Shown here: positions 1 through 20,732 of the stretch, piece after piece
Position numbering within the stretch: position 1 is the first letter of the stretch
Layout of the letters: every line of letters begins with the position of its first letter
Origin: a virus
Length of the DNA stretch: 64,000 nt
Virus record (IMG/VR): IMGVR_UViG_3300027804_003127
Strand: one strand, 5' to 3'
Program-made: the position numbers and the translations under genes
The notes under the pieces: generated by a model
Databases searched by the model: none
Told to the model about the DNA's origin: nothing
The model's input: the letters and a program-made list of their open reading frames with translations, nothing else

Positions 1-2
1 AC

Positions 3-476: not shown

Positions 477-555
477 TAGGACGATGGGGGGGGAGGGGCG
501 CAAGCCTCTCCCCCTTCCCATTCCCGAATCCCGAAAACGGGAAAGGAGTTAGAGC

Positions 556-1203
556 ATGAGCAACGAATGGAACTACGAAGCGTGGTTCGCCTCGCCTGAA
601 GGCATGAAGGCTATCAAGTCGATTGGGGAGCGTCACGGTCTTGACTTGAGTGAGATCAATGATCCGCGACTGATTGCCTGCATTATCGTGAACGCTGTTC
701 CGCAGTCATCGGCTTGGTTGCCAAAGTCTCTTGTCAACAAGGATGACGAAAGGGACGCCAAGCAACTGCTTGGACAGTTGGCTGGCGACTATCCCGATGA
801 GAATGAGATGTGTGGATGGCTTGCCCTACTGAAGCATGGTGTGTCCGATGTGTCTGTTCCATACTACGGTGGCACAGATCAGATTGATCTTGGAGATGAC
901 TTCGCCTTCTCTACGATTCACGGTAATACTGTGGACTCCAACGCTATTCTTGATGACTTCAAGAATGCGTCTGGGTCAAGTCTAGAGGACTACTTTTGGA
1001 ACGCCATTGACGACTCTGGAGCGGGAGATGGCACAACTTACTCATCGACTTGGATTACTTGCTTGATTCCCGAGTTCTCGCAGCACACTACTGATCCCGT
1101 TTGGGACGAGAACGAGCCTGATGAGTACGATGACTTTGAGATGGACTCGCCTACTGAAACTCCGCTTGGGGAACAGTTAGACGAGAACAATCCAACTGAA
1201 TAA
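556..1203 (+). CDS. hypothetical protein with acidic C-terminus
   Basis: 215-aa ORF directly after repeat copy 1, with an AAGGAG SD. Confidence 0.8.
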   Translation: MSNEWNYEAWFASPEGMKAIKSIGERHGLDLSEINDPRLIACIIVNAVPQSSAWLPKSLVNKDDERDAKQLLGQLAGDYPDENEMCGWLALLKHGVSDVSVPYYGGTDQIDLGDDFAFSTIHGNTVDSNAILDDFKNASGSSLEDYFWNAIDDSGAGDGTTYSSTWITCLIPEFSQHTTDPVWDENEPDEYDDFEMDSPTETPLGEQLDENNPTE

Positions 1204-1278
1204 GACTTATCGGGGGCGGTGGTTTCGGATAGCCGAGCCACCGCTCCCGAATCCCGAAAACTGTAGGGAGGTTAGGGC

Positions 1279-1479
1279 ATGGCTGCGAACTGTCAAAGAT
1301 GTTGGAAAGAAGCCAACTGCACTCAAATGAGTTTCTTCAACACGCAAATGTGTTGCATGAAGTGCATTGAGGAAGAGCGGAAGCATCCGAAGTACGCAGA
1401 AGCCAAAGCCGCTGAAGAGGCTGCTTTGAAGGCTGGCAACTTCAACTTTCAAGGGATTGGATACCCAAGCAACCGATAG
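1279..1479 (+). CDS. small Cys-rich (CxxC...CxxC) phage protein
   Basis: CQRC...CCMKC, GGAGG SD, follows repeat copy 2. Confidence 0.75.
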   Translation: MAANCQRCWKEANCTQMSFFNTQMCCMKCIEEERKHPKYAEAKAAEEAALKAGNFNFQGIGYPSNR

Positions 1480-1487
1480 GAGCCGAT

Positions 1488-2012
1488 ATGCCTAACTGGT
1501 GTGAGAACAAACTGACGATCTACGGAACGAAGGAAGAGCGCGCAGCGATCCGCGAGGCGGTCAAGGGATGCGTGGTTTCTGAAACCGCAAATGGGCATTT
1601 CAATATTTTGCCGCAAGATTTTGCGCTAGATGCGATTGTTCCAATGCCTGACCATATGCGATCAAAAGAAGATCCGCGCTGGAAGCCCGCGCCTCCGATG
1701 ACTTCAGATGAACTTCTTGATTCTATCGCGCAGGATGGAAAAGAGGTCTTTCCTGACTGGTATATGTGGAGGACGAACAACTGGGGAACCAAGTGGGAGG
1801 TCACTAATCCCATCGTCGTAGAGGAAAAGTCGAGATTGGTCATTGACTTTGAGACTGCGTGGTGTTATCCTCTACCGTGCATCACAGCACTGTCGCGCAG
1901 GTTTCCGACAGTCAAAATGAAGATTGCCTTCTACGAACCTGGATGTATCGGTCGCGGGAGTGCAACTCTGTTGAACGGATTTGTTATCCGTGAAACAGGT
2001 GTTGGCGTCTAA
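1488..2012 (+). CDS. DUF1281/YubB-like ferredoxin-fold protein
   Basis: MPNWCEN start, WYxWRxNNWGTKW, FETAWxxP and FYEPG motifs. Confidence 0.8.
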   Translation: MPNWCENKLTIYGTKEERAAIREAVKGCVVSETANGHFNILPQDFALDAIVPMPDHMRSKEDPRWKPAPPMTSDELLDSIAQDGKEVFPDWYMWRTNNWGTKWEVTNPIVVEEKSRLVIDFETAWCYPLPCITALSRRFPTVKMKIAFYEPGCIGRGSATLLNGFVIRETGVGV

Positions 2013-2157
2013 TACAAGATCTTTTCCCCCATGCGCTCCCCCGCTTCGCAAGAGGTGGGGTGAGCGTTTTTTCATTGAGTCGCTCCCCGCTCCCGAATCC
2101 CGAAAACTGGAGCGGGGTTAGGTCATCAGCGGCACAGCCGCAGAAAGGCAGACGAAC

Positions 2158-2574
2158 ATGGCTTTGCATTTTGATCTGACGGGAATCAGCGATCACGAGA
2201 ACATCTGCTACTACAAGAATGATGGCAACTACCTGATGGAGCCGACCACCAAGACCATCATCTTCTACATGATGGCTATTGAGGTGAGCAAGATCACGGC
2301 AGACAACATTCCCGAGGTGTTTGCTCGCATCTCTACTCTTGAGAAGTTGCTTGGCACATCTCTCTCAAAGGGCTTTGACGAGAATGGAGTCAGGATTCCC
2401 GTCTACATCACGCTTGATGATGTCTGCAAGCATGAGGGACTGATTACGAACGCATCCAACAGTTCTCGCACCGAGTTCTTGAAGAAGTGCAAGGACTGGA
2501 TCAAGAGAGACATCGACGACATCTTCAGTCAGACCAAGAAGAAGTTGGTTGAAAAGACTGCTATCTCTGCATAA
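2158..2574 (+). CDS. hypothetical phage protein
   Basis: 138-aa ORF after the conserved leader. Confidence 0.8.
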   Translation: MALHFDLTGISDHENICYYKNDGNYLMEPTTKTIIFYMMAIEVSKITADNIPEVFARISTLEKLLGTSLSKGFDENGVRIPVYITLDDVCKHEGLITNASNSSRTEFLKKCKDWIKRDIDDIFSQTKKKLVEKTAISA

Positions 2575-2584
2575 AGGAAGCAAA

Positions 2585-2953
2585 ATGCGCCCAAATGGAT
2601 ACCTGCCTTTCGACAGCGTTGACGGCTTGAACTGGGGTCAAGGTCTGTTCAATGCGGACTTTTGGAACAAGATCCTGTCCACATTGGACGGAGACAATAC
2701 GAGCGAAGTCCGCGCAGCCGCGCGAATCGTAGCCGCCATTGGAGGGCAAGAGCCAAGTCTGCTGCCATTCAATATGCTTCTTGTTGCGTCGAACAAGTTG
2801 AGGACGATGGTTGCTGATGAAGATTACATCAAGTCTTTTGACGATCCGATTGCTGCTCGCTATTCGATCCAAATGGACATTGATTGGCTTTCTACGATCA
2901 ACGACTACGCGAGGATGAAGCGCAATGATTGCGTGGTGACGCCGCAATCTTGA
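2585..2953 (+). CDS. hypothetical protein
   Basis: ATG at 2585 with an AAGGA SD. Confidence 0.7.
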   Translation: MRPNGYLPFDSVDGLNWGQGLFNADFWNKILSTLDGDNTSEVRAAARIVAAIGGQEPSLLPFNMLLVASNKLRTMVADEDYIKSFDDPIAARYSIQMDIDWLSTINDYARMKRNDCVVTPQS

Positions 2954-3000
2954 TGATCGCCACGCCCCCGAAACCCGAAAACTGGAACGGGGTTAGGGCG

Positions 3001-3070
3001 TGGGCTGAACGAACCTTTCTGCGGCGGGGCGGGGCGACTCAATCGGCGGGTTGCCCCGCCCCTCCCTTTT
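3001..3070 (+). ncRNA. candidate small RNA antisense to the cassette leader/SD
   Basis: Follows repeat copy 4. AACCTTTCTGCGGC (3012-3025) is the reverse complement of the leader GCCGCAGAAAGGTT. It is followed by a 13-bp hairpin (3026-3062) and TCCCTTTT. Confidence 0.6.
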
Positions 3071-3080
3071 GGAGCAGCAA

Positions 3081-3290
3081 ATGAACGAAAAGAGCAAGGA
3101 ACTGCTAGATGCGCTTTCAATGGCGAACATCCATCGTCGTTGGGCTAACTTGTACGAGAGGGTGATAGAGAGTCATCCCGACAGCACGATCACCTGCTGC
3201 GAGTGCGGATACACGATCTTGGGAGATGATCCCGCGATCACCGTTGTCTGCCTTCCATGCTTTGAAAAGAAAAACGGAGAAGATCAATGA
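3081..3290 (+). CDS. small Zn-finger-like protein
   Basis: CCECG...CLPC, GGAG SD. Confidence 0.65.
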   Translation: MNEKSKELLDALSMANIHRRWANLYERVIESHPDSTITCCECGYTILGDDPAITVVCLPCFEKKNGEDQ

Positions 3291-3529
3291 AGGACTACAC
3301 GGACATCTACCTCATCGGAAAGAGCCTCACATCTATGGTTCACGAGATTGAGGCTCTTCGTTCTGAAGTGCAAGCACTAACTGCGGAGCGCAACAAGTAC
3401 GAGCGTCTTTACAACGCTGCTGCTCGCGACTGTGATCGCCTTCATCAGACTTGGTGCGCTCACATTATGAACGGCGAAGTCAAGTTCGCTGAACCTGTGA
3501 ATCCATCAAAGGTCAACGATCAGTTCTAG
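3287..3529 (+). CDS. hypothetical coiled-coil protein
   Basis: ATGA overlap with the upstream gene. Confidence 0.7.
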   Translation: MKDYTDIYLIGKSLTSMVHEIEALRSEVQALTAERNKYERLYNAAARDCDRLHQTWCAHIMNGEVKFAEPVNPSKVNDQF

Positions 3530-3599
3530 CACCGCTCCCGAAACCCGAAAACTGGAGCGTGGTTAGGGCATGAGCGGCACAGCCGCAGAAGGGAATGTC

Positions 3600-3743
3600 A
3601 TGGAAGTCACCTTGACCTACTGTTTGATAGGTTCCAACATGGCGGTACTGCTTGCCTTCCTTTACGAGAAGCGCAACTTCCGTCTTACAAAGCGCGCCTC
3701 AAGTCGAAAGCGCGCGCCAAAGCGCAAGGAGGACGGCAAGTGA
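3600..3743 (+). CDS. 47-aa membrane peptide with basic tail (not in ORF track)
   Basis: MEVTLTYCLIGSNMAVLLAFLYEKRNFRLTKR..., directly after the conserved leader. Confidence 0.65.
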   Translation: MEVTLTYCLIGSNMAVLLAFLYEKRNFRLTKRASSRKRAPKRKEDGK

Positions 3744-3898
3744 GCAACGCATTTGACTGGTTGGCAGAGCAGGCAGACAGACTCATGGAGATGTTCGTGA
3801 TGCTGTACCTGTTGGCAGTATGCGCATTTGCATTCCTGTCCATCCCGTTCTCGCTGGCATTGATCGCCTTCGCATTGATGAATGGAGGTACATCGTGA
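3740..3898 (+). CDS. 52-aa hydrophobic peptide (not in ORF track)
   Basis: GTGA coupling, AAGGAGG SD, long hydrophobic stretch. Confidence 0.6.
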   Translation: MSNAFDWLAEQADRLMEMFVMLYLLAVCAFAFLSIPFSLALIAFALMNGGTS

Positions 3899-4131
3899 AA
3901 GACACAGACATCATTGCGGCGATTGCGCCCGATGCAGTATCGCTGATGGACAAGGCAATCGCGGAGATCAAGCGACTGCGGCAGGAGAACGCAACCCTCA
4001 CCGCCGAGCGCGATGAGGCGAGGCGGGAACTTTGCCGCATCGAAAGTAGTGCATCAGGAGATCCAAACATGACGAGCCGTGCCGTTGCAGCGGATTGTGG
4101 TTGGGACTGCTTCAAGGAGGACGGCAAGTGA
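3895..4131 (+). CDS. hypothetical coiled-coil protein
   Basis: GTGA coupling, GGAGG SD. Confidence 0.65.
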   Translation: MKDTDIIAAIAPDAVSLMDKAIAEIKRLRQENATLTAERDEARRELCRIESSASGDPNMTSRAVAADCGWDCFKEDGK

Positions 4132-4499
4132 GCGACAAGCAGGCGGCGTGGATCGACCGCCTTGTGGATGAGGCGAAGAATCCCGTCGAGATTCCCGACC
4201 TGACTCCGATCATTGAGGCTTTCAAGACTACCTCTGTGAAGTTCCCCAAGATCAAGGGAGTCATTGACGGTACTGAAGTCGTGATCTCGTGGACTGCGCC
4301 TGATTCGGCGCATCCGAAGGTCAAGGACGAGAACCGTGGCACTTGCGCGATCAATACGGGCAAGTACGGCGACCCGAACGCGAAGTTCTACGGTCGCATC
4401 AAGACAGACGGATCGCTTGCCGCAGGTCGTGACCTGAACGCAGCGGTTGTGTCTTGGCTGAAGGAAGTTGCGGAGAATCCGCAGCCGCAGGGCAAGTGA
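4128..4499 (+). CDS. hypothetical protein, N-terminally shorter paralog of 11036..11509
   Basis: Shares WIDRL.DEA.NP, FPKI.G..DG.E, GRI..DGS...GRDL and VAENPQP.GK with that ORF. Confidence 0.8.
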   Translation: MSDKQAAWIDRLVDEAKNPVEIPDLTPIIEAFKTTSVKFPKIKGVIDGTEVVISWTAPDSAHPKVKDENRGTCAINTGKYGDPNAKFYGRIKTDGSLAAGRDLNAAVVSWLKEVAENPQPQGK

Positions 4500-4574
4500 C
4501 CGAACAAGGGTAGGGAGGGGAGCGATCCTCTCCCTACCCGCATTGTTTCCGAATCACGAAAACGGGGGACAAAA

Positions 4575-4889
4575 ATGACTCTTGAATGCAATCAGTTCTT
4601 CATTGACATCATTGAGAAGGAGCATCATCCCGTGTGCTGCTATGTCATCACGGCATACGATGTCATGGTTGAGTTGAATGTGACGGAGGAAGTTGCTTCC
4701 GTCATTGTCGAGAGGATGCGGGAGTCAAATGACGCCGTGTGGCAGTCCATTTGGCGTGATGCACACTTTGAGTACGATCAAATCAAGGCTCAAGACCCGC
4801 TTCTTGAGTTGATTGACACGGTAAGGGACTCCCCGCCCCCGAATCCCGAAAACGGGGAAGCGGTTAGCGAGTCGGGGAAGATCAAGTAG
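4575..4889 (+). CDS. hypothetical protein (C-terminus reads through a repeat copy)
   Basis: ORF track; its PPNPENG segment is the translated repeat. Confidence 0.6.
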   Translation: MTLECNQFFIDIIEKEHHPVCCYVITAYDVMVELNVTEEVASVIVERMRESNDAVWQSIWRDAHFEYDQIKAQDPLLELIDTVRDSPPPNPENGEAVSESGKIK

Positions 4890-5045
4890 CGTATTCGCGG
4901 CGGCGAATACACCCTCCCAAGTTGCGTGGTGGCTTGGGGTCTGGAGGGCTAAACACCTGTGCAATCCCGTAATGAGCCGCAGCGGGATAAGATAAAGGCT
5001 CCCATGCCTGTTGGCGGTATCCCGTCATCAGGCATTTCCATTGAC
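4870..5045 (+). ncRNA. candidate structured RNA cassette (four hairpins)
   Basis: No SD-led ORF between repeat copies 7 and 8. Stems at 4891-4910, 4912-4948, 4964-4988 and 5004-5035. Confidence 0.55.
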
Positions 5046-5124
5046 AAGGCTCCCCGCTCCCGAATCCCGAAAACTGGATCGGGGTTATGTCATCAGCGGC
5101 AAAGCCGCAGAAAGGCAGATAGAC

Positions 5125-5496
5125 ATGGCTGACAAGAAGATGCTGAAGATCGGCGCGAACGGCAAGATCGAGGTGGTCGCCTACACGGGATACGAGTCTC
5201 TGCGCGATGGCGTTGGCGGCTACATCGAGTGCATCAGTCTCTCTGATACTGTTTCTCTGTGGTGTAACGAGAACGGCAAGTTGGACGGACTGCCACCGAA
5301 TATGTTTGCCACCATGCTGTTCGCAGAGGTCTTTGGCAATGCAGACATCATCGTTGGCGATTGCTGCGTTCTAGGTGGAGTCGATGAGGAAGGCGAGAGC
5401 CTGGAATGTCCGCAGGATGTCATCGACAAGGTGAAGCGTTGGGCTGATAAGTTGCAGCCCATGTGGGTGGTGAGCGGAGCGGGCGGACGCGAGTGA
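5125..5496 (+). CDS. DUF3846-family protein
   Basis: LRDGVGGYIE, LWCNENGKLDGLPPN and IIVGDC motifs. Confidence 0.8.
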   Translation: MADKKMLKIGANGKIEVVAYTGYESLRDGVGGYIECISLSDTVSLWCNENGKLDGLPPNMFATMLFAEVFGNADIIVGDCCVLGGVDEEGESLECPQDVIDKVKRWADKLQPMWVVSGAGGRE

Positions 5497-5565
5497 GGCG
5501 CGCCCCCGAATCCCGAAAACTGGAATGAAGTTAGGGTGTAGCGAGAACACTCGCAGAAAGGACAG

Positions 5566-5973
5566 ATGATGCAGACGACGAATATCGCGCTAGATGTCAA
5601 GTCGAGTGCAGCCGCCGCAATCGTGAAGGAGATCGTTGAGCCTACCGAGGGCTTTACGAGCGGCAAGATCACGGTGGAGTTTGACTTCACCTGCGACAAG
5701 GGTGCAGACGAGACTTACACGGCTGTGCAGGAACTTTGCCCGTGGACTCTCGTGGCAGTCCTCATGTCGAAGATCAATGGAGTCACGCAGGATGTCGTTC
5801 TCGACATGATCCCCGAGATCATGGCTATGTCCGACAAGCAGCGCAAGGTGCTGCGCGAGACTCTCAAGGACACCACCACGCAGCGTCTTGAGGAGATGGG
5901 TGCGATGGTGCAGAAGGTGCGCGCTGGCAAGTGCCGTATCGAAGTGATCGGCTCTGCTACCGTGCAGAAGTAG
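5566..5973 (+). CDS. hypothetical protein
   Basis: 135-aa ORF after the conserved leader. Confidence 0.8.
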   Translation: MMQTTNIALDVKSSAAAAIVKEIVEPTEGFTSGKITVEFDFTCDKGADETYTAVQELCPWTLVAVLMSKINGVTQDVVLDMIPEIMAMSDKQRKVLRETLKDTTTQRLEEMGAMVQKVRAGKCRIEVIGSATVQK

Positions 5974-6063
5974 GACGAAAGATGGGGGAGGGGAGAAATC
6001 CTCTCCCCCGTCTTATTCCCGAAACCCGAAAACTGGAACGAAGTTAGGTCACAGGAGGCAACC

Positions 6064-6240
6064 ATGCGAATCCGAGAGTGTACCTGCGATAGTGGGGAAT
6101 GGGGTACTGAACAGTACGATGCAAGGGGTATCTACCTCTGCATTACCTGTCCCGAGTGTCACGATAAGAAGATGTCCGCTTATCGTCCTGAAGTCCTCAC
6201 AGACTCTAACTACGAGTGTTGTGAGGACATTGAACCGTAA
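6064..6240 (+). CDS. 58-aa Cys-rich protein (not in ORF track)
   Basis: MRIRECTCDSGE...YDARGIYLCITCPECH..., AGGAGG SD. Confidence 0.75.
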   Translation: MRIRECTCDSGEWGTEQYDARGIYLCITCPECHDKKMSAYRPEVLTDSNYECCEDIEP

Positions 6241-6318
6241 GGCTCCCCGTCCCCGAAACCCGAAAACGGGGAAGCAGTTAGGTCATCAGCGGGGCAATCC
6301 CGCAGAAAGGACAGACGC

Positions 6319-6600
6319 ATGAGTTTCTACGCAAGCGACACGGGATGGGCAATCTCGTACAAGAACGGATGGTCGGTGTCCGTCAAGTTCAGCGAATCCC
6401 ACTATTCGGCGCAAGCCGCAGGAAAGTGGGTCAGCGCAGAAGTCGCGGTCTTTAGACCGAACGGCGACTTCTATCCCTTGACGGAGGATGACGATGTCAA
6501 GGGATGGCAGACTCCCGAAGAGGTCACGCAGATCATGCTGTGGGCTGAAAGTCAGCCCAATAGCAGCGGTGACTACAAGGTGGAATCTGTGTCCTACTGA
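6319..6600 (+). CDS. hypothetical phage protein
   Basis: NGWSVSV...AEVAV...DDVKGWQTPEEV pattern; follows the leader. Confidence 0.75.
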   Translation: MSFYASDTGWAISYKNGWSVSVKFSESHYSAQAAGKWVSAEVAVFRPNGDFYPLTEDDDVKGWQTPEEVTQIMLWAESQPNSSGDYKVESVSY

Positions 6601-6716
6601 ATACTGAAGGGGGGAAGGCGAAGCCTTCCCCCCTTCACCCCCCCGCCGCCCCCGAATCCCGAAAACTGGAGCGGGGTTAGGGTGTGGCGAGAACACTCGC
6701 AGAAAGGTTGGCGCAG

Positions 6717-7216: not shown

Positions 7217-7437
7217 GCGGAACTAGGACGATCACGAAGCGGTGCGTTCAGACGGGGAAGAACTACAGCGTCACCGTTGACGATGACGCATTCTTCAGGT
7301 GGGTCAACGGGGAACTCGCGCAGCGAGCGTTCCCGAACATGAATCCAGCCGATAGGGAGTTTCTCATCAGCGGAATCTCTCCCGAAGGTTGGCAGCAAAT
7401 CTTTGGAGACAAGGAAGAGGCAGATACGGGGGCGTAA
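7213..7437 (+). CDS. conserved phage hypothetical protein
   Basis: Q.AFP.M...DREFLISGI.PE.W motif; follows the leader. Confidence 0.75.
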   Translation: MSGTRTITKRCVQTGKNYSVTVDDDAFFRWVNGELAQRAFPNMNPADREFLISGISPEGWQQIFGDKEEADTGA

Positions 7438-7500
7438 GCCCCCGTTGTCTGCCTCCCGAATCCCGAAAACTGTAACGAAGTTAGGTCACAGGAGGCAACC

Positions 7501-7731
7501 ATGCGTAATCCCAAGAACGGACTGTGGGTAGTGACCTTTCATCAGGAGCATTGCTACGAGAGCGATGCCGCTACTGAATGGGGCGATGATGTCCCGTACA
7601 TCGAGAGCATTGTTGTGGACGCGAATAGCGATCACGATGCTCGCAAGAAGGCGAAGAACGCAATCGTTGCATACGGGAAGATCACGATTGTGAGCGCGTT
7701 CCCGATGACCTCAATCTTCCATCGCGCATAA
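7501..7731 (+). CDS. hypothetical protein
   Basis: AGGAGG SD; leader identical to that of 6064. Confidence 0.7.
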   Translation: MRNPKNGLWVVTFHQEHCYESDAATEWGDDVPYIESIVVDANSDHDARKKAKNAIVAYGKITIVSAFPMTSIFHRA

Positions 7732-7828
7732 AAAACGCGGGAATCAATAGAGCACCGCCCCCGAATCCAGAAAACTGGAGCGGGGTTAGGGTGTAAGCGG
7801 GGCAATCCCGCAGAAAGGCAGACTGAAC

Positions 7829-8239
7829 ATGAGTTATGGAGAAGATCGTCCTCTTGTTGGTATCAAGGGCATCGTGATCGCAGCATCCATCATCATTTCG
7901 TGCATCGGTGGGTGTACGATTGGCTATCCTCACTACAAGGTGTGGAGCGCCACGATGGATGGCGAAGCAGAGTACGCTCAAGCCGAGCAGAACCGCAGAA
8001 TCGCGGTTCTTGAAGCCGAAGCGGAACTACAGTCGGCAAAGGCACTTGCCGCTGCGGAAGTCGAGCGAGCGAAGGGTGTTGCTGAAGCCAACGCCATCAT
8101 TGGACAGAGCCTCAAGGACAACGAAGCGTACCTGCGCTGGCAGTGGATCAAGAACCTCGAAAGCGGTTCTAATAGCGTGATCTATGTTCCTACAGAAGCG
8201 GGGCTTCCCATCCTTGAAGCGGGGAAGCGAGACAAGTAA
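7829..8239 (+). CDS. membrane-anchored coiled-coil protein (SPFH/band-7 C-terminal-like)
   Basis: N-terminal TM segment, EVERAKGVAEANAII...YLRW and VIYVPTEAGLPILEA. Confidence 0.7.
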   Translation: MSYGEDRPLVGIKGIVIAASIIISCIGGCTIGYPHYKVWSATMDGEAEYAQAEQNRRIAVLEAEAELQSAKALAAAEVERAKGVAEANAIIGQSLKDNEAYLRWQWIKNLESGSNSVIYVPTEAGLPILEAGKRDK

Positions 8240-8364
8240 CCTTTCCGAAGAGGGCGCGCTCCACAGGGGGTGCGCCCTCTTTGTTTCGACGCCAGCCCCC
8301 GAATCCCGAAAACGGGAGCGGGGTTAGGGTGTAAGCGGGGCAATCCCGCAGAAAGGACAGACGC

Positions 8365-8673
8365 ATGAAGGAAGTCAGTCTTTCAGAGCGTCCCGCTGAT
8401 TACAGCGCGGACAACGGCAAGGGTGCGCCAACCCATGTCCAACTCAAGTCCACGAAGCGGTGGGTCAAGACTCCCGAGGGCTACCATCGTCGCCCAGAGG
8501 GATGGATGAGTCACATCTACTACAGGTGTGAGGATGGATACGAATGGATCGAGACTCCAAGCATCGACTTGCTTGAGGAATGGCAGTCGGATTGCGTGTG
8601 TGAGACTCCAACGGGTGAGATGGTCGAGCCTGACCATCCCCGTTCATGGTTGTTCATCCTGGGACTCATCTAA
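8365..8673 (+). CDS. hypothetical phage protein
   Basis: C-terminal VEPD...SWL..LGLI motif; follows the leader. Confidence 0.75.
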   Translation: MKEVSLSERPADYSADNGKGAPTHVQLKSTKRWVKTPEGYHRRPEGWMSHIYYRCEDGYEWIETPSIDLLEEWQSDCVCETPTGEMVEPDHPRSWLFILGLI

Positions 8674-8719
8674 ACGAGCAATGTGCGGGGGGAGGGAGCG
8701 CTACCTCTCCCCGCACGAG

Positions 8720-8777
8720 ACTGAAGCGCACCGCACCGTGCCGCACCGCGCTACTGAAGCGCACCGCACCGTGCCGC
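8720..8777 (+). repeat. 25-bp direct repeat x2 (ACTGAAGCGCACCGCACCGTGCCGC)
   Basis: Copies at 8720-8744 and 8753-8777. Confidence 0.9.
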
Positions 8778-8867
8778 GCAAATGAAACGCCCCTCGCTCC
8801 CGAAACCAGAAAACGGGAGCGAGGGGCATACTCTTTAGCAACATAGTTGCTGGAAAGGTGGAGAGTA

Positions 8868-9095
8868 ATGGACGAATACGATGACTTCATCATCGGACCT
8901 CAATGCGAAGAGTTGTCCATCTATGTTGGCTACAACATCATGGACGAGGACGCTTGTGAGATTGATTGGTGCGTCGATTGTTGCGACGACGACGACGACG
9001 ACGACCATGACGACGACCATGATGGCGACCATGACGCGCCAAACCCACAATCCCCGCCCCCGAATCCCGAAAACGGGAGCGGGGTTAGGGTGTAA
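8868..9095 (+). CDS. very acidic Asp/His/Cys-rich small protein
   Basis: A GAC-repeat tract encodes DDDDDDDHDDDHDGDHD. Confidence 0.6.
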   Translation: MDEYDDFIIGPQCEELSIYVGYNIMDEDACEIDWCVDCCDDDDDDDHDDDHDGDHDAPNPQSPPPNPENGSGVRV

Positions 9096-9125
9096 GCGGG
9101 ACAATCCCGCAGAAAGGTTGGTGCG

Positions 9126-9449
9126 ATGACTCAAGCAGAACTCATCGCGAAGGTAGGGTTCGGATGTGGTGGTGATCGTGAAGAAATCCTGTTCCGTGCA
9201 GGGTATCGTCCGATCAGGTGGTCGCCGTTCAACCGCGACACGAAGGAGTTTGTGTCGTGGACGCGACTCGACCGCTCCGCAGAGGAAGAGGGAATCGCCT
9301 TCTGGCGTTCGCGCGAACTGCGGTCAGGATCGCGCCACTACCTTTCCACCTCCGATGCCACCATGCGTGGCGAGGACGGAAGTGGATGGACGCGCACCCG
9401 CGCTCTGCGGAACGCAGATGCGCTCCGATGGGAACGCGCAAGTCGGTGA
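9126..9449 (+). CDS. hypothetical protein, paralog of 12188..12469
   Basis: Shares GFGC.GD..E...RAG.R.IR.SPF and FVSWTRLD. Confidence 0.8.
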   Translation: MTQAELIAKVGFGCGGDREEILFRAGYRPIRWSPFNRDTKEFVSWTRLDRSAEEEGIAFWRSRELRSGSRHYLSTSDATMRGEDGSGWTRTRALRNADALRWERASR

Positions 9450-9537
9450 ACAGCAATAGGGGGGAAGGGAGAGGCGAAGCCTCTCCCTTCCCCCCTCTCT
9501 TCCGAAACCCGAAAACGGGGAAAGAAAAGGAAAAACC

Positions 9538-9702
9538 ATGAAAACAATCTTCTTGCTTACGATCACCCTGCTCGCCGCATTCGCATTCAACGCTGGCATC
9601 ATGTGGTGCTGCGTTGAACTGTTCGGATGGAATCCCGCGATCATCGCTGGCGTGGTGGGAATGGGTCATGCTGCGAATGCTCTTGTGAAGAAACCAAAGT
9701 AG
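9538..9702 (+). CDS. 54-aa membrane peptide (not in ORF track)
   Basis: MKTIFLLTITLLAAFAFNAGIMWCC..., AAGGA SD. Confidence 0.65.
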   Translation: MKTIFLLTITLLAAFAFNAGIMWCCVELFGWNPAIIAGVVGMGHAANALVKKPK

Positions 9703-9794
9703 CACCGCACACCGCACACCGCACACCGCCCCCGAAACCCGAAAACTGGGACGCGGTTAGAGCGTAAGCGGCACAGCCGCAGAAAGGTGGTTCG

Positions 9795-9959
9795 ATGAAC
9801 AAGGGAATCCAAGACCAAGCGCGTCGAGCCAAAACGCTGGCTTGGCAGCGTGCGCGCGACATTCGCGCTGCGGGACGCATTGCGCGACCCGCTACTTGGG
9901 GCGGCAAGCCAACCGCCAAAGAGTCTCGCCGCGCATGGAATCAGCGCGGAGAGCATTGA
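9795..9959 (+). CDS. 54-aa Arg/Ala-rich basic peptide (not in ORF track)
   Basis: MNKGIQDQARRAKTLAWQRARDIR..., after the leader. Confidence 0.65.
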   Translation: MNKGIQDQARRAKTLAWQRARDIRAAGRIARPATWGGKPTAKESRRAWNQRGEH

Positions 9960-10036
9960 AGCACTCCAGCCCCCGAATCCCGAAAACTGGAACGGGGTTA
10001 GGGCATCAGCGGCACAGCCGCAGAAAGGTTGCGAAC

Positions 10037-10423
10037 ATGAGCATCAGCGCATGTCACATCAGCCGTGACGAGAATGAGGTCGCAGCGGAAATCGCCGCTG
10101 CAACGGCGAACATCCTCGCGGATTCGTCCGCTTGGATCGTCCTGACCCAAGTGATGGAGAACTACGGCGCCCATGCTTGGGATGGCAAGGGTGAGTGTCC
10201 GCAGTATTGGAAGGCGAAGGGCGGCAACGAGTATATCGTTCGCGGTTGCCGCACACACATCGAGGCTATGAGTCTCGTCGCCTCGCGCATGAGCAACAAC
10301 CATGCGTGGAGGGAGTTCCCCGTTGGCTCGCTCGAGCCTGCGGAGTGGATCAAGGACATCGAGGACTACGATGCGTCCTACAAGGCGCATCTCTTGAAGG
10401 GGATTCAAGAGATCAAGCGATAA
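10037..10423 (+). CDS. conserved phage hypothetical protein
   Basis: ENYGAHAWDGKGECPQYWKAKGG motif. Confidence 0.8.
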   Translation: MSISACHISRDENEVAAEIAAATANILADSSAWIVLTQVMENYGAHAWDGKGECPQYWKAKGGNEYIVRGCRTHIEAMSLVASRMSNNHAWREFPVGSLEPAEWIKDIEDYDASYKAHLLKGIQEIKR

Positions 10424-10553
10424 CCTTTCCGAAGAGGGCGCGCTCCGCAAGGGGTGCGCCCTCTTTGTTTCGTTGCTCTTCCCGCTCCCGAAACCCGAAA
10501 ACTGGAGCGGGGTTAGGGCGTAAGCGGCACAGCCGCTAGAAAGGTTGACGAAC

Positions 10554-10676
10554 ATGGAAACTGTGCTCCAAGTCTGTTCGTGGATCGTCCTCACGGGCGT
10601 TGCCATGATTTGGCCAGGGTTTGCCCTAGTTTGTCTCGACTACATCGTTCAAGGGTTGAGGCGGCACAGCCGCTAG
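10554..10676 (+). CDS. 40-aa membrane peptide (not in ORF track)
   Basis: METVLQVCSWIVLTGVAMIWPGFALVCLDY..., after the leader. Confidence 0.6.
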   Translation: METVLQVCSWIVLTGVAMIWPGFALVCLDYIVQGLRRHSR

Positions 10677-10690
10677 AAAGGTTGACGAAC

Positions 10691-10876
10691 ATGGATGAGA
10701 AGATTCGTGAACTGACGGATCAAGTGCAAAAACTCCTGAAGGAGAATGAAGATCTCCGAGGGGGAGTCGATGAGAGAGTCTGTGACCTTGTTGATGAGAA
10801 CAAGGATCTCAAGAGACAACTTGAGAAGGCGCGTATTGAGCGCGACCTACTCATGCGGATCGTGAAAGGCGCGTAG
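10691..10876 (+). CDS. small coiled-coil protein
   Basis: Heptad pattern; preceded by a duplicated leader. Confidence 0.7.
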   Translation: MDEKIRELTDQVQKLLKENEDLRGGVDERVCDLVDENKDLKRQLEKARIERDLLMRIVKGA

Positions 10877-11035
10877 TACGCGCGCATACTACACGCTCCC
10901 GAATCCCGAAAACTTTGCGGCTCGACTTGCATCGGTCGCGCCGTGCATTGCACGAAACACTCCAACCCCCGAATCCAGAAAACTGGAGCGGGGTTAGAGC
11001 ACAAGCGGGACAATCCCGCAGAAAGGCAGATCAAC

Positions 11036-11509
11036 ATGGACAAGAACAAGCAGATTCAGGGACTCGCATCCGTCATCGCAACGAACCCCGCTCGCGCGGA
11101 GTTCGCGTCGTCGCTGCTCGCCGCGCTCGTCAAGGGCAGCGCGTCGGAGAAGCAGGTCGAGTGGATCGACCGCCTCATTGACGAGGCGCAGAACCCTGCG
11201 CCCGTGGTTGGCGATCTCGCCGCTCTCATCGAGGCGTTCCGCGCCTCGAAGGATCGGTTCCCCAAGATTCGGGGAACGGTTGACGGGATCGAGTGGACGA
11301 TCTCGTACACGCCCCGCGACAGCGCGAAGGCGAAGCCCGAGAATTGCGACACTTGCAACATCGCATCGGGCAAGTTCGGGCAACCAGACAATCGGTTCGC
11401 GGGGCGCATCCTCGCGGACGGGAGTTTCAAGGGGGGACGCGACCTGACCCCCGCAGTCGCGGAGTGGATCAAGTCGGTTGCGGAGAACCCGCAGCCGAAG
11501 GGCAAGTAA
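11036..11509 (+). CDS. hypothetical protein, paralog of 4128..4499
   Basis: Direct sequence similarity; follows the leader. Confidence 0.8.
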   Translation: MDKNKQIQGLASVIATNPARAEFASSLLAALVKGSASEKQVEWIDRLIDEAQNPAPVVGDLAALIEAFRASKDRFPKIRGTVDGIEWTISYTPRDSAKAKPENCDTCNIASGKFGQPDNRFAGRILADGSFKGGRDLTPAVAEWIKSVAENPQPKGK

Positions 11510-11631
11510 ATCGCAGGGGGCGCGCTCCACAAGGGCGCGCCCCTATCTGCGTTTCAATCCCCGCTCCCGAATCCCGAAAACTGGAGCGGAGTTAGAGCGT
11601 AAGCGGCACAGCCGCAGAAAGGTTGGCGCAG

Positions 11632-11865
11632 ATGAAGGGACAGAACATGACGCTCGCCCAGCGCATCGCTTGGGCGAAGCAACTCAAGGCGCGCGAGGCG
11701 AACGCTCGCGCCGAGGCGGAGGCGCGCGCAGCGCGCATCGCACAGCAGCGCGAGGTCGCTGCGTCGGTCGCCGCCCACACCTATCAGGGTGGGTCGGGCG
11801 ACTCGCTGGGGTTCCTCATGCACCTCGCAGGGGTGCAGGGGGCGTCCTCGAACGCCCATCGCTAA
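11632..11865 (+). CDS. Ala/Arg-rich helical protein
   Basis: ORF after the leader. Confidence 0.65.
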   Translation: MKGQNMTLAQRIAWAKQLKAREANARAEAEARAARIAQQREVAASVAAHTYQGGSGDSLGFLMHLAGVQGASSNAHR

Positions 11866-11954
11866 CCGCAGGGGGGCGCGCTCCACAAGGGCGCGCCCCT
11901 ATCTGCGTTTCTCTCCCCGCTCCCGAATCCCGAAAACGGTAGCGGGGTTAGAGC

Positions 11955-12062
11955 AGTAGCGGCAAGTGTCGTTCGCAGGTAGAAGCGCGCCCCTAGACGC
12001 GCAGCACGCTACAGCGAACGGCAGGGTTCAGCGTGAACCTTGTGCCGTCAAACATAAACGCC
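11955..12062 (+). ncRNA. candidate three-way-junction RNA cassette
   Basis: No SD-led ORF between repeat copy 26 and the next hairpin. Stems 11959-64/12043-48, 11967-76/12014-23 and 12024-30/12034-40. Confidence 0.55.
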
Positions 12063-12187
12063 GCAAGGGGGCGCGCTCCGCAAGGGGCGCGCCCCTATCT
12101 GCGTTTCTCTCCCCGCTCCCGAATCCCGAAAACGGTAGCGGGGTTAGAGCACAAGCGGGACAATCCCGCAGAAAGGTTGGTGCGCCC

Positions 12188-12469
12188 ATGAAGAGCGCAC
12201 ACGAACTGACCAGCCGAATGGGATTCGGCTGCAACGGCGACCACCGAGAGGTCGCCTATCGCGCGGGCGTCCGCGCGATCCGCCTCTCCCCGTTCGATGA
12301 CGGGGAGGGTACGCCGATCCACGATTTCGTGTCGTGGACGAGGCTCGACTCCCTCGCCGCGAGCGAGGGAGAGGCAGTAGCCTCCGCTTGGCGCATCCGC
12401 GCCGAGCGGGGTGACGGCACGCGCCAAGCCGTGCCAACAATCTTCGGCAAGTTGCCGAAGGGCAAGTAA
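12188..12469 (+). CDS. hypothetical protein, paralog of 9126..9449
   Basis: Direct sequence similarity and the same leader subtype. Confidence 0.8.
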   Translation: MKSAHELTSRMGFGCNGDHREVAYRAGVRAIRLSPFDDGEGTPIHDFVSWTRLDSLAASEGEAVASAWRIRAERGDGTRQAVPTIFGKLPKGK

Positions 12470-12592
12470 ATCGCAGGGGGCGCGCTCCACAGGGGGCGCG
12501 CCCCTATTCTGCGTTTCTACTCCCGCTCCCGAATCACGAAAACTGGAGCGCGGTTAGAGCGCAAGCGGCACAGCCGCTAGAAAGGACAGAAC

Positions 12593-12835
12593 ATGACTGA
12601 AAAGGTTGAATGGACGCGCGAACGCGCGATCGCGCTGCTCTCGATGATCGAGAGCAACCACCCCGACCTGTCTGAAAAGACGGGTTGGGAAGATGAGAAC
12701 TGTCAGGTCGCCTATGTGGGCGGCCTGTTGTGGGCAGCCGCCCACGATGAGGCTGACCTCGACGGCCTCAAGTCGCGCCTCGCGCGCGCGCAGGCCGCAC
12801 GCGCCGCAAGGCGAGCGCGGTACGCAAACTGCTAA
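12593..12835 (+). CDS. hypothetical protein
   Basis: ORF after the leader. Confidence 0.7.
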   Translation: MTEKVEWTRERAIALLSMIESNHPDLSEKTGWEDENCQVAYVGGLLWAAAHDEADLDGLKSRLARAQAARAARRARYANC

Positions 12836-12957
12836 CAGCAAAGGGACGCATCCCACAAGGGTGCGTCCCTTTGCTGCGTTTCAACCCCCGCTCCCGAATC
12901 CAGAAAACTGGAGCGCGGTTAGAGCACAAGCGGCACAGCCGCTAGAAAGGTGGTTCG

Positions 12958-13326
12958 ATGGAAGTTGTGATTGTCACGCGCCACGCGGCGCTGGTGCAGG
13001 TCCTCGCAGAGGACCATGGAATCACGGGTCGCGTCGTGGAGCACGCGCTCCCGACCGACGTGATCGGAAACATCGTCATCGGCGTGCTGCCGATGCACTT
13101 GGCTGCGAAGGCAGCCAAGGTCGGGACGCTCGTCCTCGACCTCCCCGCAGATTTGCGGGGAAAGGAGTTGACTGCCGCCGAAGTGCGGCAGTATACCACG
13201 AACCTTGAGTGGTTCGTGGTGAGGACGGAGGTCCAGCAGCAGTGGCTGCTGGACGACAGCAATCAGGCTGGCCTGCAGGGTTCGCTAGGTCGACTGGCGC
13301 AGGACATGGCTCCTGCGTCGGTGTGA
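12958..13326 (+). CDS. csx16: Csx16-like (Cas_VVA1548 family) protein, putative ring nuclease
   Basis: VTRH, VVEH, VIGVLPMHLAA and LDLPADLRGKELTAAE match the Csx16 pattern SRH...VIGTLPVHLAA...L.LP...RG.EL. Confidence 0.7.
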   Translation: MEVVIVTRHAALVQVLAEDHGITGRVVEHALPTDVIGNIVIGVLPMHLAAKAAKVGTLVLDLPADLRGKELTAAEVRQYTTNLEWFVVRTEVQQQWLLDDSNQAGLQGSLGRLAQDMAPASV

Positions 13327-13375
13327 GAATAGGGGCGCGCTCCACAGGGGGCGCGCCCCTATTCTGCGTTTGTTT
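13327..13375 (+). terminator. GC-rich hairpin family closing cassettes (last copy)
   Basis: GAATAGGGGCGCGCTCC-ACAG-GGGGCGCGCCCCTATTC followed by TGCGTTTGTTT. Related copies at about 8247, 10431, 11513, 11868, 12063, 12473 and 12837. Confidence 0.75.
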
Positions 13376-19407: not shown

Positions 19408-19408
19408 C

Positions 19409-20731: not shown

Positions 20732-20732
20732 A

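What the first reader, a model, noticed from the sequence alone, without database searches (positions are those of the whole stretch)
480..13375. A 13-kb array of about 29 standardized expression cassettes
Seen: nearly every small gene (or 2-4 gene block) is bracketed by the same composite unit. The unit is a GC hairpin after the upstream stop, then CCCGAAWCCMGAAAACKGGAGCGGGGTTAGRG, then a short stem-loop, AGAAAGG and ATG. All units are co-oriented, spaced about 70-900 bp apart, and carry unrelated cargo, both proteins and apparent RNAs. Known: repeated early-promoter/stem-loop units drive gene shuffling in some T4-type phages (PeSL elements), and SPO1-like phages keep host-takeover genes in promoter-dense terminal regions. 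This element does not resemble a TTGACA/TATAAT promoter. Inference: this is an integron-like but apparently integrase-free, recombination-shuffled early/anti-defence gene library.
Basis: partly seen in the sequence, partly recalled or inferred. Interest (0 to 1): 0.92.

Follow-up and report, generated by a model that had tools for sequence, protein, structure and literature searches.

The report
Private-promoter gene cassette array, huge phage
A huge uncultured lake phage puts the same private start signal, usually behind a stop hairpin, in front of about 40 small genes in a GC-rich arm of its genome, and related strains gain, lose and swap these genes and their leaders at the repeats: a new variant of the promoter-terminator cassettes known from T4-like phages.

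Summary
The core CCGAAWCCMGAAAAC occurs 29 times in window 524-12894. There are 41 copies over 35 kb of the parent contig, all on the + strand. The AT-rich 51 kb has none.

I read it as a phage-specific promoter: a contiguous 16-nt block, then initiating G's. It is fused to modular 5' leaders, often behind a terminator hairpin.
- A 67-91% identical relative keeps the core at orthologous sites.
- Two more distant lineages have the same architecture but a different block. A third has sigma70-like promoters at the same position.
- Truncated units that keep only the block still lead SD-plus-ATG genes.

The polymerase or factor that reads it was not found.

Recombination at the units is real:
- two cassette-precise indels between strains;
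- leader hairpins swapped at orthologous units;
- cargo order permuted in a distant lineage.

This looks like homologous exchange as in T4-type PeSLs, not integron chemistry. The claimed covarying stem around the core is not supported. The anti-defence content is conjecture, resting on one Csx16-like gene.

The array coincides with a sharp codon-usage split (AAA 8% against 74% of Lys codons).

This scan has already reported PeSL-like arrays in other huge phages.

The parts
1..13375 (+). Window part of the cassette array (GC 52-61%). The array continues 21.6 kb upstream of the window.
523..554 (+). unit, short form (ATG 556, 215 aa)
1246..1277 (+). unit, short form (ATG 1279, 66 aa; then 174-aa DUF1281_C gene)
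2092..2123 (+). unit, long form (leader hairpin, AGAAAGG, ATG 2158)
2967..2998 (+). unit heading an ORF-less stretch with an anti-leader 14-mer and a strong terminator, then the ORF at 3081
3537..3568 (+). unit with ATG 3570 at the short-form register, plus a leader hairpin; heads a 4-gene block
4548..4563 (+). truncated unit: core plus GGGGGA, then ATG 4575 (104 aa), behind a strong hairpin
4838..4853 (+). unit inside the 3' end of ORF 4575-4889; heads an ORF-less stretch of about 190 nt
5059..5090 (+). unit, long form (ATG 5125, DUF3846)
5505..5520 (+). unit, long form (ATG 5566); leader type differs in strain L077
6018..6033 (+). unit, ATG at +31 (6064)
6252..6267 (+). unit, long form (ATG 6319)
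6651..6682 (+). unit, long form (ATG 6717); core mutated in strain L076, leader type differs in L077
7147..7178 (+). unit, long form (ATG 7213), overlapping the 3' end of the DUF7249 gene
7455..7470 (+). unit, ATG at +31 (7501)
7760..7791 (+). unit, long form (ATG 7829)
8298..8329 (+). unit, long form (ATG 8365)
8799..8814 (+). unit lacking GTTAG, with its own leader hairpin (AGCAAC/GTTGCT) and ATG 8868
9059..9090 (+). unit, long form (ATG 9126)
9501..9516 (+). truncated unit: core plus GGGG, its own SD, ATG 9538 (54-aa membrane peptide)
9731..9762 (+). unit, long form (ATG 9795)
9972..10003 (+). unit, long form (ATG 10037)
10487..10518 (+). unit, long form (ATG 10554); a second leader copy without a core stands before ATG 10691
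10898..10913 (+). bare core (remnant), 70 nt before the next unit
10968..10999 (+). unit, long form (ATG 11036, 157 aa; paralogue of 4128)
11566..11597 (+). unit, long form (ATG 11632)
11922..12105 (+). unit plus an ORF-less structured RNA cassette (z -5.07, terminator included); absent from strains JACCDW and JACCDX
12118..12149 (+). unit, long form (ATG 12188; paralogue of 9126)
12528..12835 (+). unit plus an 80-aa gene; the whole cassette is absent from strain L076
12893..13326 (+). last unit plus a Csx16-like gene (PF09652, E 6.6e-17)
13326..13451 (+). two terminator hairpins that close the array; after them GC falls to 30-47%
54743..55552 (+). FliA/WhiG-like sigma factor of the phage, in the AT-rich arm; context, not shown to read the units

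Best explanation
The repeat is a phage-specific promoter. It consists of a contiguous invariant block of about 16 nt, (C)CCGAAWCCMGAAAAC, with transcription most likely starting at the G's just after it. The block is fused to modular 5' leaders. The short leader is 17 nt and ends in TAGRGC-ATG. The long leader adds a covarying hairpin and AGAAAGG. A terminator hairpin of the preceding cassette often stands upstream.

The result is a row of insulated mono- or oligocistronic units for small accessory genes, tRNAs and a few small RNAs, filling the GC-rich arm of a huge lake phage. CheckV rates two related IMG/VR fragments as 6% and 1% complete, which would imply about 0.4 Mb if read literally. 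Contigs of 200-245 kb of this phage or near-identical strains overlap the window.

Because the units are long near-identical direct repeats, they also serve as substrates for homologous recombination and gene conversion. This deletes, inserts and re-heads cassettes, as with the PeSLs of T4-type phages.

Shown here: the repeat, its register with start codons, its conservation at orthologous sites, the lineage-specific variants, the cassette indels and the leader swaps.

For: Distribution and orientation:
- 41 of 41 copies are co-oriented with the genes and confined to one arm.
- Start codons sit at fixed registers: +18 in 9 copies and in 8 copies of relative G001; +49 to +55 in about 18 copies.

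Conservation:
- In G001 (67-91% nt identity, colinear over 24 kb) all 18 cores match the core pattern with no mismatch, and most lie at orthologous sites. The flanks differ.

Where the signal ends:
- Truncated units 4549, 9502 and 8800 keep only the block plus G's, yet precede SD-plus-ATG genes, two of them behind strong hairpins.
- The same pattern holds in lineage L080, where truncated units end at GCATCGG.
- So the signal lies in the block and the start site is at or before about +7.

Other lineages at the same position:
- L074 has CCTAAAGTTCCCCCATCAGAGGAAAGCCTAGGGAG (4 copies).
- L080 has GCAGAAAATCCCCCYYGCATCGGAGATGCTAGAG (16 copies).
- L079 has a hairpin plus TTGACT-N17-TAYCAT around homologous cargo.
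- This gives positional equivalence to a canonical promoter, and 'dialects' as between T7, T3 and SP6.

Background signals:
- Sigma70-like sites are not enriched (6 against 5.7). Terminator-like hairpins are (23 against 13.8).
- 19 of 41 units follow a strong hairpin, against 12% of controls.
- The motif is not multi-copy in any of 185,579 species genomes: 13 single hits, about as expected by chance, none related to the phage.

Recombination:
- The 196-bp ORF-less cassette is absent from JACCDW and JACCDX.
- The 80-aa cassette is absent from L076, with the junction inside the shared repeat.
- Leader types are swapped at orthologous units while the cargo is unchanged, and the same A-to-C core change appears in 5 units of L073.
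- Cargo order is permuted in L080 and L074.
Against: - No transcript 5' ends are available.
- No RNA polymerase was found. There is no Pfam RNA-polymerase hit among the hits on record for the called genes of roughly two thirds of the 92 kb read (window about 24.7-44.7 kb is not covered by them), nor in my own scans of selected ORFs. No sigma factor other than the FliA-like one was found either. The rest of the genome could not be searched.
- Published surveys say jumbo phages that carry sigma factors usually lack their own polymerase (PMC7824862).
- Homogeneity within one genome could partly reflect gene conversion rather than selection on every base.
- TAGRG is shared by three lineages and resembles the T7-group TATAGGGAGA. 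This allows an alternative start site 13-14 nt further downstream.
- Not every strain difference is unit-bounded. L056 has an extra ORF bounded by ATGAA microhomology. The L076 replacement ends inside a paralogous gene.
Confidence: 0.72

Rival explanations
1. The unit is an RNA-level signal, not a promoter. Long read-through transcripts are cut or bound at the invariant 16-mer by a phage endoribonuclease or translational regulator. The cut would produce the same 5' leaders, and the upstream hairpins would be 3' stabilisers. T7 early mRNA processing and Cas6-type repeat cleavage are the models.
For: - The consensus flanks are complementary (CCCCGCTCC / GGAGCGGGG, 76% of cells paired), which would present the core as a 15-nt loop.
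- SD-like G's lie in the 3' arm.
- Many upstream hairpins lack a good U-tract.
- Lineage-specific variants would fit a co-evolving nuclease as well as a polymerase.
Against: - Pairing is no better than in column-shuffled controls (76.3% against 75.3%; 85 of 500 shuffles reach the observed value).
- The stem is not kept in G001.
- Truncated units without a 3' arm still head genes.
- Homologous cargo in L079 has canonical promoters at the same position.
- No sigma70-like promoter enrichment exists in the window part of the array (1-14 kb) to feed long transcripts.
Confidence: 0.1
2. The unit is a bipartite promoter read by host core polymerase with an alternative sigma factor. This could be the phage's FliA/WhiG-like sigma or an ECF-type host sigma. 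The -35 would be CGAAT and the -10 GTT(AG), 18 nt apart. The short forms would then be leaderless or nearly leaderless mRNAs.
For: - cGAAT-N18-GTT matches the spacing I recall for the actinobacterial SigH/SigR-type consensus GGAAT-N18-GTT (my knowledge, untested).
- GTTAG is 90% or more conserved.
- The phage encodes a sigma factor.
- Jumbo phages with sigma factors usually lack their own polymerase (PMC7824862).
- The exact ATG register would be natural for leaderless mRNAs.
Against: - The 'spacer' CCMGAAAAC is as invariant as the '-35', both within the genome and in G001.
- Units 4549, 9502 and 8800 lack GTT yet head genes. In 4549 the ATG would lie upstream of the predicted start.
- A different bipartite motif, AAAGG-N16-18-MGTAW, is enriched in the AT-rich arm (8 against 2.0). 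It is the more natural target of the phage sigma.
Confidence: 0.13
3. The units are sites of a dedicated site-specific recombination system, integron-like, whose recombinase is encoded elsewhere. Expression signals would be secondary.
For: - Cassette-precise indels.
- Many unrelated cargos.
- Permuted order in distant lineages.
Against: - No integrase or recombinase appears in the Pfam hits on record for the called genes, which cover roughly two thirds of the 92 kb read.
- There is no conserved palindromic or covarying structure.
- Junctions fall within repeats of about 100 nt, as expected for homologous exchange.
- Other differences are not unit-bounded.
- The fixed register with start codons and the leader modules point to expression.
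Confidence: 0.05

Closest known systems
PeSL (promoter-early stem-loop) cassettes of T4-type phages (Arbiol et al. 2010, PMC2839356; Comeau et al. 2014, PMC4122927)
   Same: - A composite of terminator stem-loop, promoter, SD and start in front of ORFans.
- Dozens of copies, clustered in plastic regions.
- Indels between close relatives that end in the repeats.
   Different: - The promoter part is not sigma70-like. It is an invariant contiguous 16-mer with lineage-specific variants.
- Leader hairpin modules are added.
- All copies fill one GC-rich arm with its own codon usage, instead of being scattered in hyperplastic regions.
- Mini-circles were not tested.
- The phage was not shown to be T4-type.
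Promoters of T7-group single-subunit RNA polymerases (T7, T3, SP6, K11) and the T7 phi10 leader (my knowledge)
   Same: - A contiguous block of about 17-23 bp ending at a G-rich start (GGGAG here, GGGAGA in T7).
- Many near-identical copies per genome.
- Different 'dialects' in related phages.
- A 5' leader hairpin before the SD.
   Different: - No T7-like polymerase gene was found in the 92 kb available.
- There is no sequence similarity of the block.
- The density (41 in 35 kb) is far higher.
- The start site is unmapped.
Host-takeover or pre-early regions of large phages (SPO1 terminal redundancy, T5 first-step-transfer region) (my knowledge)
   Same: A compact block of small genes of unknown function with dense strong promoters, at one side of the genome.
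   Different: - Those regions use host sigma-A or sigma70 promoters.
- Here the signal is non-canonical.
- A terminal position and early timing are not shown.
Start-associated sequences (SAS/ESAS) of cluster K mycobacteriophages (Pope et al. 2011; my knowledge, not read here)
   Same: A short conserved repeat at a fixed distance upstream of many start codons, including the ribosome site.
   Different: - SAS is 13 bp and thought to act in translation.
- Here the conserved block lies upstream of the leader and survives when the leader is replaced.
Integron cassette arrays
   Same: A co-oriented row of small unrelated cassettes separated by a repeated element.
   Different: - No IntI was found.
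- There is no attC structure.
- Each cassette has its own promoter-like unit.
- Exchange looks homologous.

Membership tests
PeSL (T4-type promoter-early stem-loop) | Composite intergenic motif: stem-loop terminator plus promoter plus SD and start of the next gene | tested here: met
   Unit followed by SD and ATG at fixed registers. A strong upstream hairpin stands before 19 of 41 units, against 12% of controls. Terminator-like sites number 23 against 13.8.
PeSL (T4-type promoter-early stem-loop) | The promoter part matches the host sigma70 consensus (-35/-10, AT-rich upstream) | tested here: not met
   There is no TTGACA/TATAAT in the unit. Sigma70-like sites number 6 against 5.7 expected in the array. 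The conserved part is one contiguous GC-rich 16-mer.
PeSL (T4-type promoter-early stem-loop) | Indels and replacements between close relatives end in the motifs | tested here: met
   Two cassette-precise indels and leader swaps. Two other differences are not unit-bounded.
PeSL (T4-type promoter-early stem-loop) | Excised mini-circles formed between neighbouring motifs | not testable with these tools
   This needs reads or PCR across circle junctions.
T7-type single-subunit RNAP promoter | Contiguous conserved block directly upstream of the start site, with a G-rich initial transcribed sequence | tested here: inconclusive
   The sequence pattern fits. The start site is not mapped.
T7-type single-subunit RNAP promoter | A cognate single-subunit RNA polymerase gene (PF00940) in the same genome | tested here: inconclusive
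   There is no PF00940 hit among the Pfam hits on record for the called genes of roughly two thirds of the 92 kb read, nor in my scans of selected ORFs. More than 150 kb of the genome could not be searched.
Integron | IntI tyrosine recombinase next to the array, with one common promoter Pc | tested here: not met
   No recombinase family appears in the hits on record for the called genes, which cover the array and both its flanks. Every cassette has its own unit.
Integron | attC sites: imperfect palindromes conserved in structure, not in sequence | tested here: not met
   The stem around the core pairs no better than shuffled columns (76.3% against 75.3%) and is absent in G001. Here it is the sequence that is conserved, not the structure.
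Bipartite sigma promoter (ECF or group 3) | Two short conserved elements separated by a spacer of free sequence | tested here: not met
   The putative spacer is invariant. Units without the putative -10 still head genes.

The most novel reading that the evidence does not exclude
The phage divides its genome into two compartments. The GC-rich arm has codons suited to a GC-rich host and avoids the codons served by the phage's own tRNAs. It is switched on from about 41 copies of a private promoter by a polymerase or factor that the virion brings in. It also carries the tRNA and tmRNA genes that later allow translation of the AT-rich replication and structural arm, which is read by the phage sigma factor. 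The promoter 'dialect' changes between lineages together with its unknown reader, and one cassette makes a small RNA antisense to the shared leader that tunes the whole array.
Probability: 0.2. Interest if true: 0.8.

Novelty: new variant of a known kind. Interest (0 to 1): 0.58.

Why it matters
- It extends the PeSL idea from host-type promoters in T4-like phages to a private, lineage-specific promoter in a huge uncultured phage. The idea is that repeated regulatory joints both insulate small genes and act as seams for gene exchange.
- It gives a ready-made set of about 40 natural variants of one unknown promoter with interchangeable leaders. These can be used to identify the polymerase or factor that reads them.
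- The coincidence of promoter class, GC content and codon usage points to a temporal division of translation resources. In the array versus the AT-rich arm, AAA is 8% versus 74%, TTA 0% versus 39% and AGA 4% versus 70% of the codons for its amino acid. The phage tRNAs serve the AT-arm codons. This can be tested and would help host prediction.
- The cargo is a concentrated pool of likely host-takeover or counter-defence genes of unknown function.

Tried and rejected
**Searches that found nothing**
- Megablast of the array against 50,697 phage records: no match.
- Rfam on 1-14 kb: only one chance miRNA hit below threshold.
- Literature search for the motif: nothing relevant.
- IMG/VR scan for the L074-type unit: no hit.

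**Motif scans**
- In IMG/VR only two fragments carry the motif.
- In 185,579 species genomes there are 13 single chance hits, none related to the phage.
- So this is neither a host promoter consensus nor a known prophage.

**Attempts to search the rest of the genome for a polymerase**
- Walking by look-ups was too costly.

**Readings rejected**
- Covarying stem with an invariant loop: rejected.
- Sigma54 reading (TGG...TTGC): rejected by eye. The GC dinucleotide is missing and the spacing is off by one.
- Chimeric assembly as the cause of the GC jump: rejected.

**Other checks**
- The ORF-less stretch 4854-5045 is not significantly structured (z -1.56).
- PHROG 9677 looked like a taxonomic anchor, but it is UDP-galactopyranose mutase, an auxiliary gene.
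- One look-up found no record.

Full report
**1. Is it there?**

Yes.
- The 15-nt core CCGAATCCCGAAAAC at up to 3 substitutions finds 29 sites. All are on the + strand, at 524-12894.
- The remaining 51 kb has only one chance hit, on the other strand.

The window is part of ena:ERZ27247887:k141_698292 (97,496 bp; window base 1 = contig 32403). I fetched the upstream 28 kb. The array in fact starts 21.6 kb before the window. It has 41 copies between contig 10750 and 45296, all +.

**2. Genome context**

The contig is a huge phage.
- The arm with the units carries six tRNA genes and a tmRNA.
- The AT-rich arm carries G6PD, a 2-hydroxyacid dehydrogenase, RNR, ThyX, dUTPase, SOD, an SNF2-like helicase, a LysM lysozyme and a FliA/WhiG-like sigma factor.
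- Contigs of 200,733 and 244,792 bp, from this phage or near-identical strains, overlap the window.
- CheckV rates two related IMG/VR fragments as 6% and 1% complete. Read literally, this implies roughly 0.4 Mb.

Composition changes sharply at the end of the array.
- GC is 44-61% in the unit-bearing arm. It falls to 42% within a few hundred bases after 13.4 kb, and to 30-38% further on.
- GC3 is 0.45-0.85 in the arm. It is 0.75-0.85 in the last five cassettes and 0.2-0.3 in the AT-rich arm.
- The junction is spanned by independent assemblies from other samples and assemblers. It is not a chimera.

**3. Anatomy of the unit**

I aligned all 41 copies.
- CCGAA, the C after the W, G-AAAA-C and three G's downstream are invariant in the 38 copies aligned.
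- The flanking C, one further core C, the A of GGA and TTA of GTTAG are 90% or more conserved.
- The consensus is cccgCtC-CCGAAtCCCGAAAAC-tGGAgcGggGTTAGgg.

What follows the core falls into classes:
- ATG exactly 18 nt after the core: 9 copies (...GGAG/GGGG-TTAGRGC-ATG).
- A leader hairpin, then AGAAAGG, then ATG at +49 to +55: about 18 copies.
- ATG at +31: 2 copies.
- Idiosyncratic leaders after only core plus G's: 4549, 9502, 8800.
- A bare core: 10899.
- ORF-less stretches: 2968, 4839, 11923.

The leader hairpin comes in four sequence types that all keep pairing:
- GCGGC-ACA-GCCGC
- GCGGGR-CAA-TCCCGC
- GCGAG-AACA-CTCGC
- AGCAAC-ATA-GTTGCT

MAFFT misaligns these types, so the formal count under-reports the covariation.

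Upstream hairpins are common but not universal.
- A strong hairpin lies in the 68 nt upstream of 19 of 41 units, against 12% of random windows.
- Terminator-like sites are enriched, 23 against 13.8. Sigma70-like promoters are not, 6 against 5.7.

**4. The stem around the core**

In this phage's consensus the flanks are complementary (CCCCGCTCC / GGAGCGGGG). The complementarity belongs to the consensus, not to covariation.
- 76.3% of cells pair, against 75.3% after shuffling partners among copies. 85 of 500 shuffles reach the observed value. Only the count of double changes is marginal (12 against 6.5).
- In relative G001 the flanks are gaCC...GGGGaaag and do not pair.

I therefore do not accept the 'invariant loop, covarying stem' reading.

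**5. Relatives**

(a) Same population. Contigs from several assemblies of other samples (JGI, ENA and Logan) are about 99.8-100% identical.

(b) Strains at 94-99% identity (JACCD* contigs, L073, L076-L078) are colinear but differ in several ways.
- JACCDW and JACCDX lack exactly the 196-bp ORF-less cassette between units 11923 and 12119.
- L076 lacks the 80-aa cassette 12593-12835. Its junction lies inside the shared terminator-unit-leader repeat.
- L076, L077 and L078 carry 1.17 kb with two extra unit-led cassettes where the window has 3745-4127. The right end of that replacement lies inside a paralogous gene.
- L056 has an extra ORF of about 90 aa bounded by ATGAA microhomology, not by units.
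- At orthologous units with unchanged cargo the leader hairpin type differs between strains. W5506 and W6652 differ in L077. W7761, W9973 and W10969 differ in L073. W11567 differs in L076.
- Five units of L073 share the same A-to-C change in the core.
- These last two points are signatures of gene conversion among units.

(c) G001 (IMGVR_UViG_3300049042_000177, 67-91% nt identity) is colinear with contig 10749-34930. It has 18 cores, all matching the core pattern with no mismatch, most of them at orthologous sites.

(d) Distant lineages were found through homologues of the 157-aa cargo.
- L074 has four copies of a different unit, CCTAAAGTTCCCCCATCAGAGGAAAGCCTAGGGAGTAA. One copy is followed by the very same GCGGCACAGCCGC-AGAAAGG leader.
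- L080 has 16 copies in 7.3 kb of GCAGAAAATCCCCCYYGCATCGGAGATGCTAGAG. It has hairpins upstream, a short form ending CTAGAGC-ATG, and truncated units that end at GCATCGG.
- L080 shares 6 of 15 cargo genes with the window, in the permuted order 1488, 5566, 7213, 5125, 6064, 11036.
- By eye, L080 ends in the same junction boxes as the window (accccccacc..gggggtct, ggggataccttac).
- L079 has homologous cargo between a hairpin and TTGACT-N17-TAYCAT.

**6. What it is**

Several features together point to a promoter:
- co-orientation with the genes;
- a fixed register with start codons;
- position behind terminators;
- conservation of the block at orthologous sites while the flanks diverge;
- replacement of the block by other blocks, or by a canonical sigma70 promoter, at the same position in other lineages.

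Truncated units in two lineages show that the essential part ends at the G's after the block. The start site is therefore most likely at AAAAC|GGG. That places GGGAG at +1, as in T7-group promoters (my knowledge).

A contiguous 16-nt recognition block directly upstream of the start is typical of single-subunit phage polymerases, not of sigma factors. However, no polymerase gene was found in the 92 kb I could read, and published surveys find that sigma-bearing jumbo phages usually lack one (PMC7824862). It could be a phage or virion-delivered polymerase, or a factor that retargets host polymerase.

The phage's FliA-like sigma more plausibly serves AAAGG-N16-18-MGTAW. That motif occurs 8 times against 2.0 expected, all in the AT-rich arm.

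TAGRG is shared by three lineages. It allows an alternative start 13-14 nt further downstream. Unit 4549 argues against this, because its ATG lies before that point.

**7. Recombination**

The last cassettes share about 110-130 nt of near-identical terminator, unit and leader. The observed indels and leader swaps are what homologous recombination or gene conversion between such direct repeats produces. This is the PeSL mechanism (PMC2839356; PMC4122927).

It is not integron-like.
- No integrase appears in the Pfam hits on record for the called genes. These cover the array and both its flanks, roughly two thirds of the 92 kb.
- There is no attC-type structure.
- Each cassette has its own promoter-like unit.

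Order is conserved at 67-91% identity and permuted only at greater distance, so turnover is moderate.

**8. Timing and function of the cargo**

Most cargo has no Pfam or PHROG family. The named families are DUF932, DUF1281_C, DUF3846, DUF7249, DUF6011, DUF5983, DUF4241, DUF6915 and a Csx16-like protein (PF09652, E 6.6e-17).

The array avoids the codons that the AT-rich arm prefers, and the phage tRNAs (Lys-UUU, Leu-UAA, Glu-UUC, Gly-UCC) serve those AT-arm codons:

| Codon | Array | AT-rich arm |
|---|---|---|
| AAA | 8% | 74% |
| TTA | 0% | 39% |
| AGA | 4% | 70% |
| GAA | 38% | 78% |

This fits early genes translated with the host's tRNA pool in a GC-rich host, and later genes that depend on phage tRNAs. 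It is an inference, not a demonstration. 'Anti-defence library' remains a conjecture.

**9. Novelty**

Published analogues exist:
- PeSLs for the architecture and the shuffling;
- T7-group promoters for the contiguous private promoter.

This scan has already reported PeSL-like arrays in other huge phages, including ones with phage-specific signals and lineage 'dialects' (unchecked notes).

What is particular here:
- the non-canonical invariant block;
- interchangeable leader modules;
- the exact coincidence of promoter class with a GC and codon-usage compartment;
- the scale, 41 units in 35 kb.

I class it as a new variant of a known kind.

Noticed in passing
window 1-13400 versus 21700-64000 (and the contig upstream): Extreme compositional split within one phage genome. 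GC3 is 0.45-0.85 in the promoter arm and 0.2-0.3 in the AT-rich arm. AAA is 8% versus 74% of Lys codons, TTA 0% versus 39%, AGA 4% versus 70%. The phage tRNAs (Lys-UUU, Leu-UAA, Leu-CAA, Glu-UUC, Gly-UCC, Arg-CCU) lie in the GC-rich arm, and at least four of them serve codons preferred by the AT-rich arm.
   Followed up: partly
window 2996-3072: Behind unit 2968 lies AACCTTTCTGCGGC, the exact reverse complement of the shared leader/SD GCCGCAGAAAGGTT. It is followed by a 15-pair terminator hairpin (13 G-C pairs by eye) and TCCCTTTT. The complement matches 2 leaders exactly, 5 at up to 1 mismatch, 8 at up to 2 and 15 at up to 3, and nothing elsewhere at up to 2. It is a candidate small RNA against the array's own leaders, and it is conserved in strain L056.
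   Followed up: partly
window 12958-13326: The last cassette encodes a Csx16-like protein (PF09652 Cas_VVA1548, E 6.6e-17, above the cut-off). No cas genes are nearby. It is only 87% identical in strain L076, where the rest is 97-99%. A role as a ring nuclease against type III CRISPR signalling is possible.
   Followed up: partly
L025 14788-15127 (contig 19135-19474, about 13 kb upstream of the window): A phage-encoded tmRNA with tag peptide ANSFRMAA lies in the unit-bearing arm, with two HNH endonuclease genes nearby. One of them (contig 17801-18464) is absent from G001 and G002.
   Followed up: no
window 54743-55552 and intergenic sites 33438, 34451, 40661, 52976(-), 56768: A FliA/WhiG-like sigma factor (TIGR02479, E 5.9e-42, below the trusted cut-off). 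The bipartite motif AAAGG-N16-18-MGTAW occurs 8 times against 2.0 expected, only in the AT-rich arm.
   Followed up: partly
window 13380-13600 and 14870-14990; L080 7150-7289: GGGGATACCTTA boxes, some followed by TATAAT-like sequence, and a C-rich hairpin with a T-run mark the end of the array. The same boxes end the array of the distant lineage L080. Several Logan contigs break at 13425. This may be a conserved boundary, origin or end-related site.
   Followed up: no
window 41231-41302: Six tandem copies of the 12-mer GCAGCAGTACCA inside ORF 40679-42172, giving an in-frame 4-residue repeat.
   Followed up: no
L025 8968-11347 (contig 13315-15694): A MoxR-like AAA_5 ATPase is followed by a DUF2201 metallopeptidase/VWA protein. 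Each has its own unit. A KaiC/RecA-like ATPase and ClpS lie just upstream.
   Followed up: no
L076 9265 (orthologue of window unit 6652): In one strain the core reads CCCAACCCCCAAAAC. The G's of both CCCGAA half-sites are changed to C and one base is lost, while the leader and cargo are intact. This may be a natural promoter knock-out.
   Followed up: no
window 10650-10696: A copy of the leader hairpin plus AGAAAGG plus spacer, without any core, stands in front of the second gene (ATG 10691) of cassette 10488. The leader module can therefore move independently of the promoter block.
   Followed up: no
window 19409-21722, 42742-43830, 49244-49873: Auxiliary metabolic genes: G6PD, a 2-hydroxyacid dehydrogenase, UDP-galactopyranose mutase (about 50% identical to bacterial and phage glf genes) and Fe/Mn SOD.
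   Followed up: no
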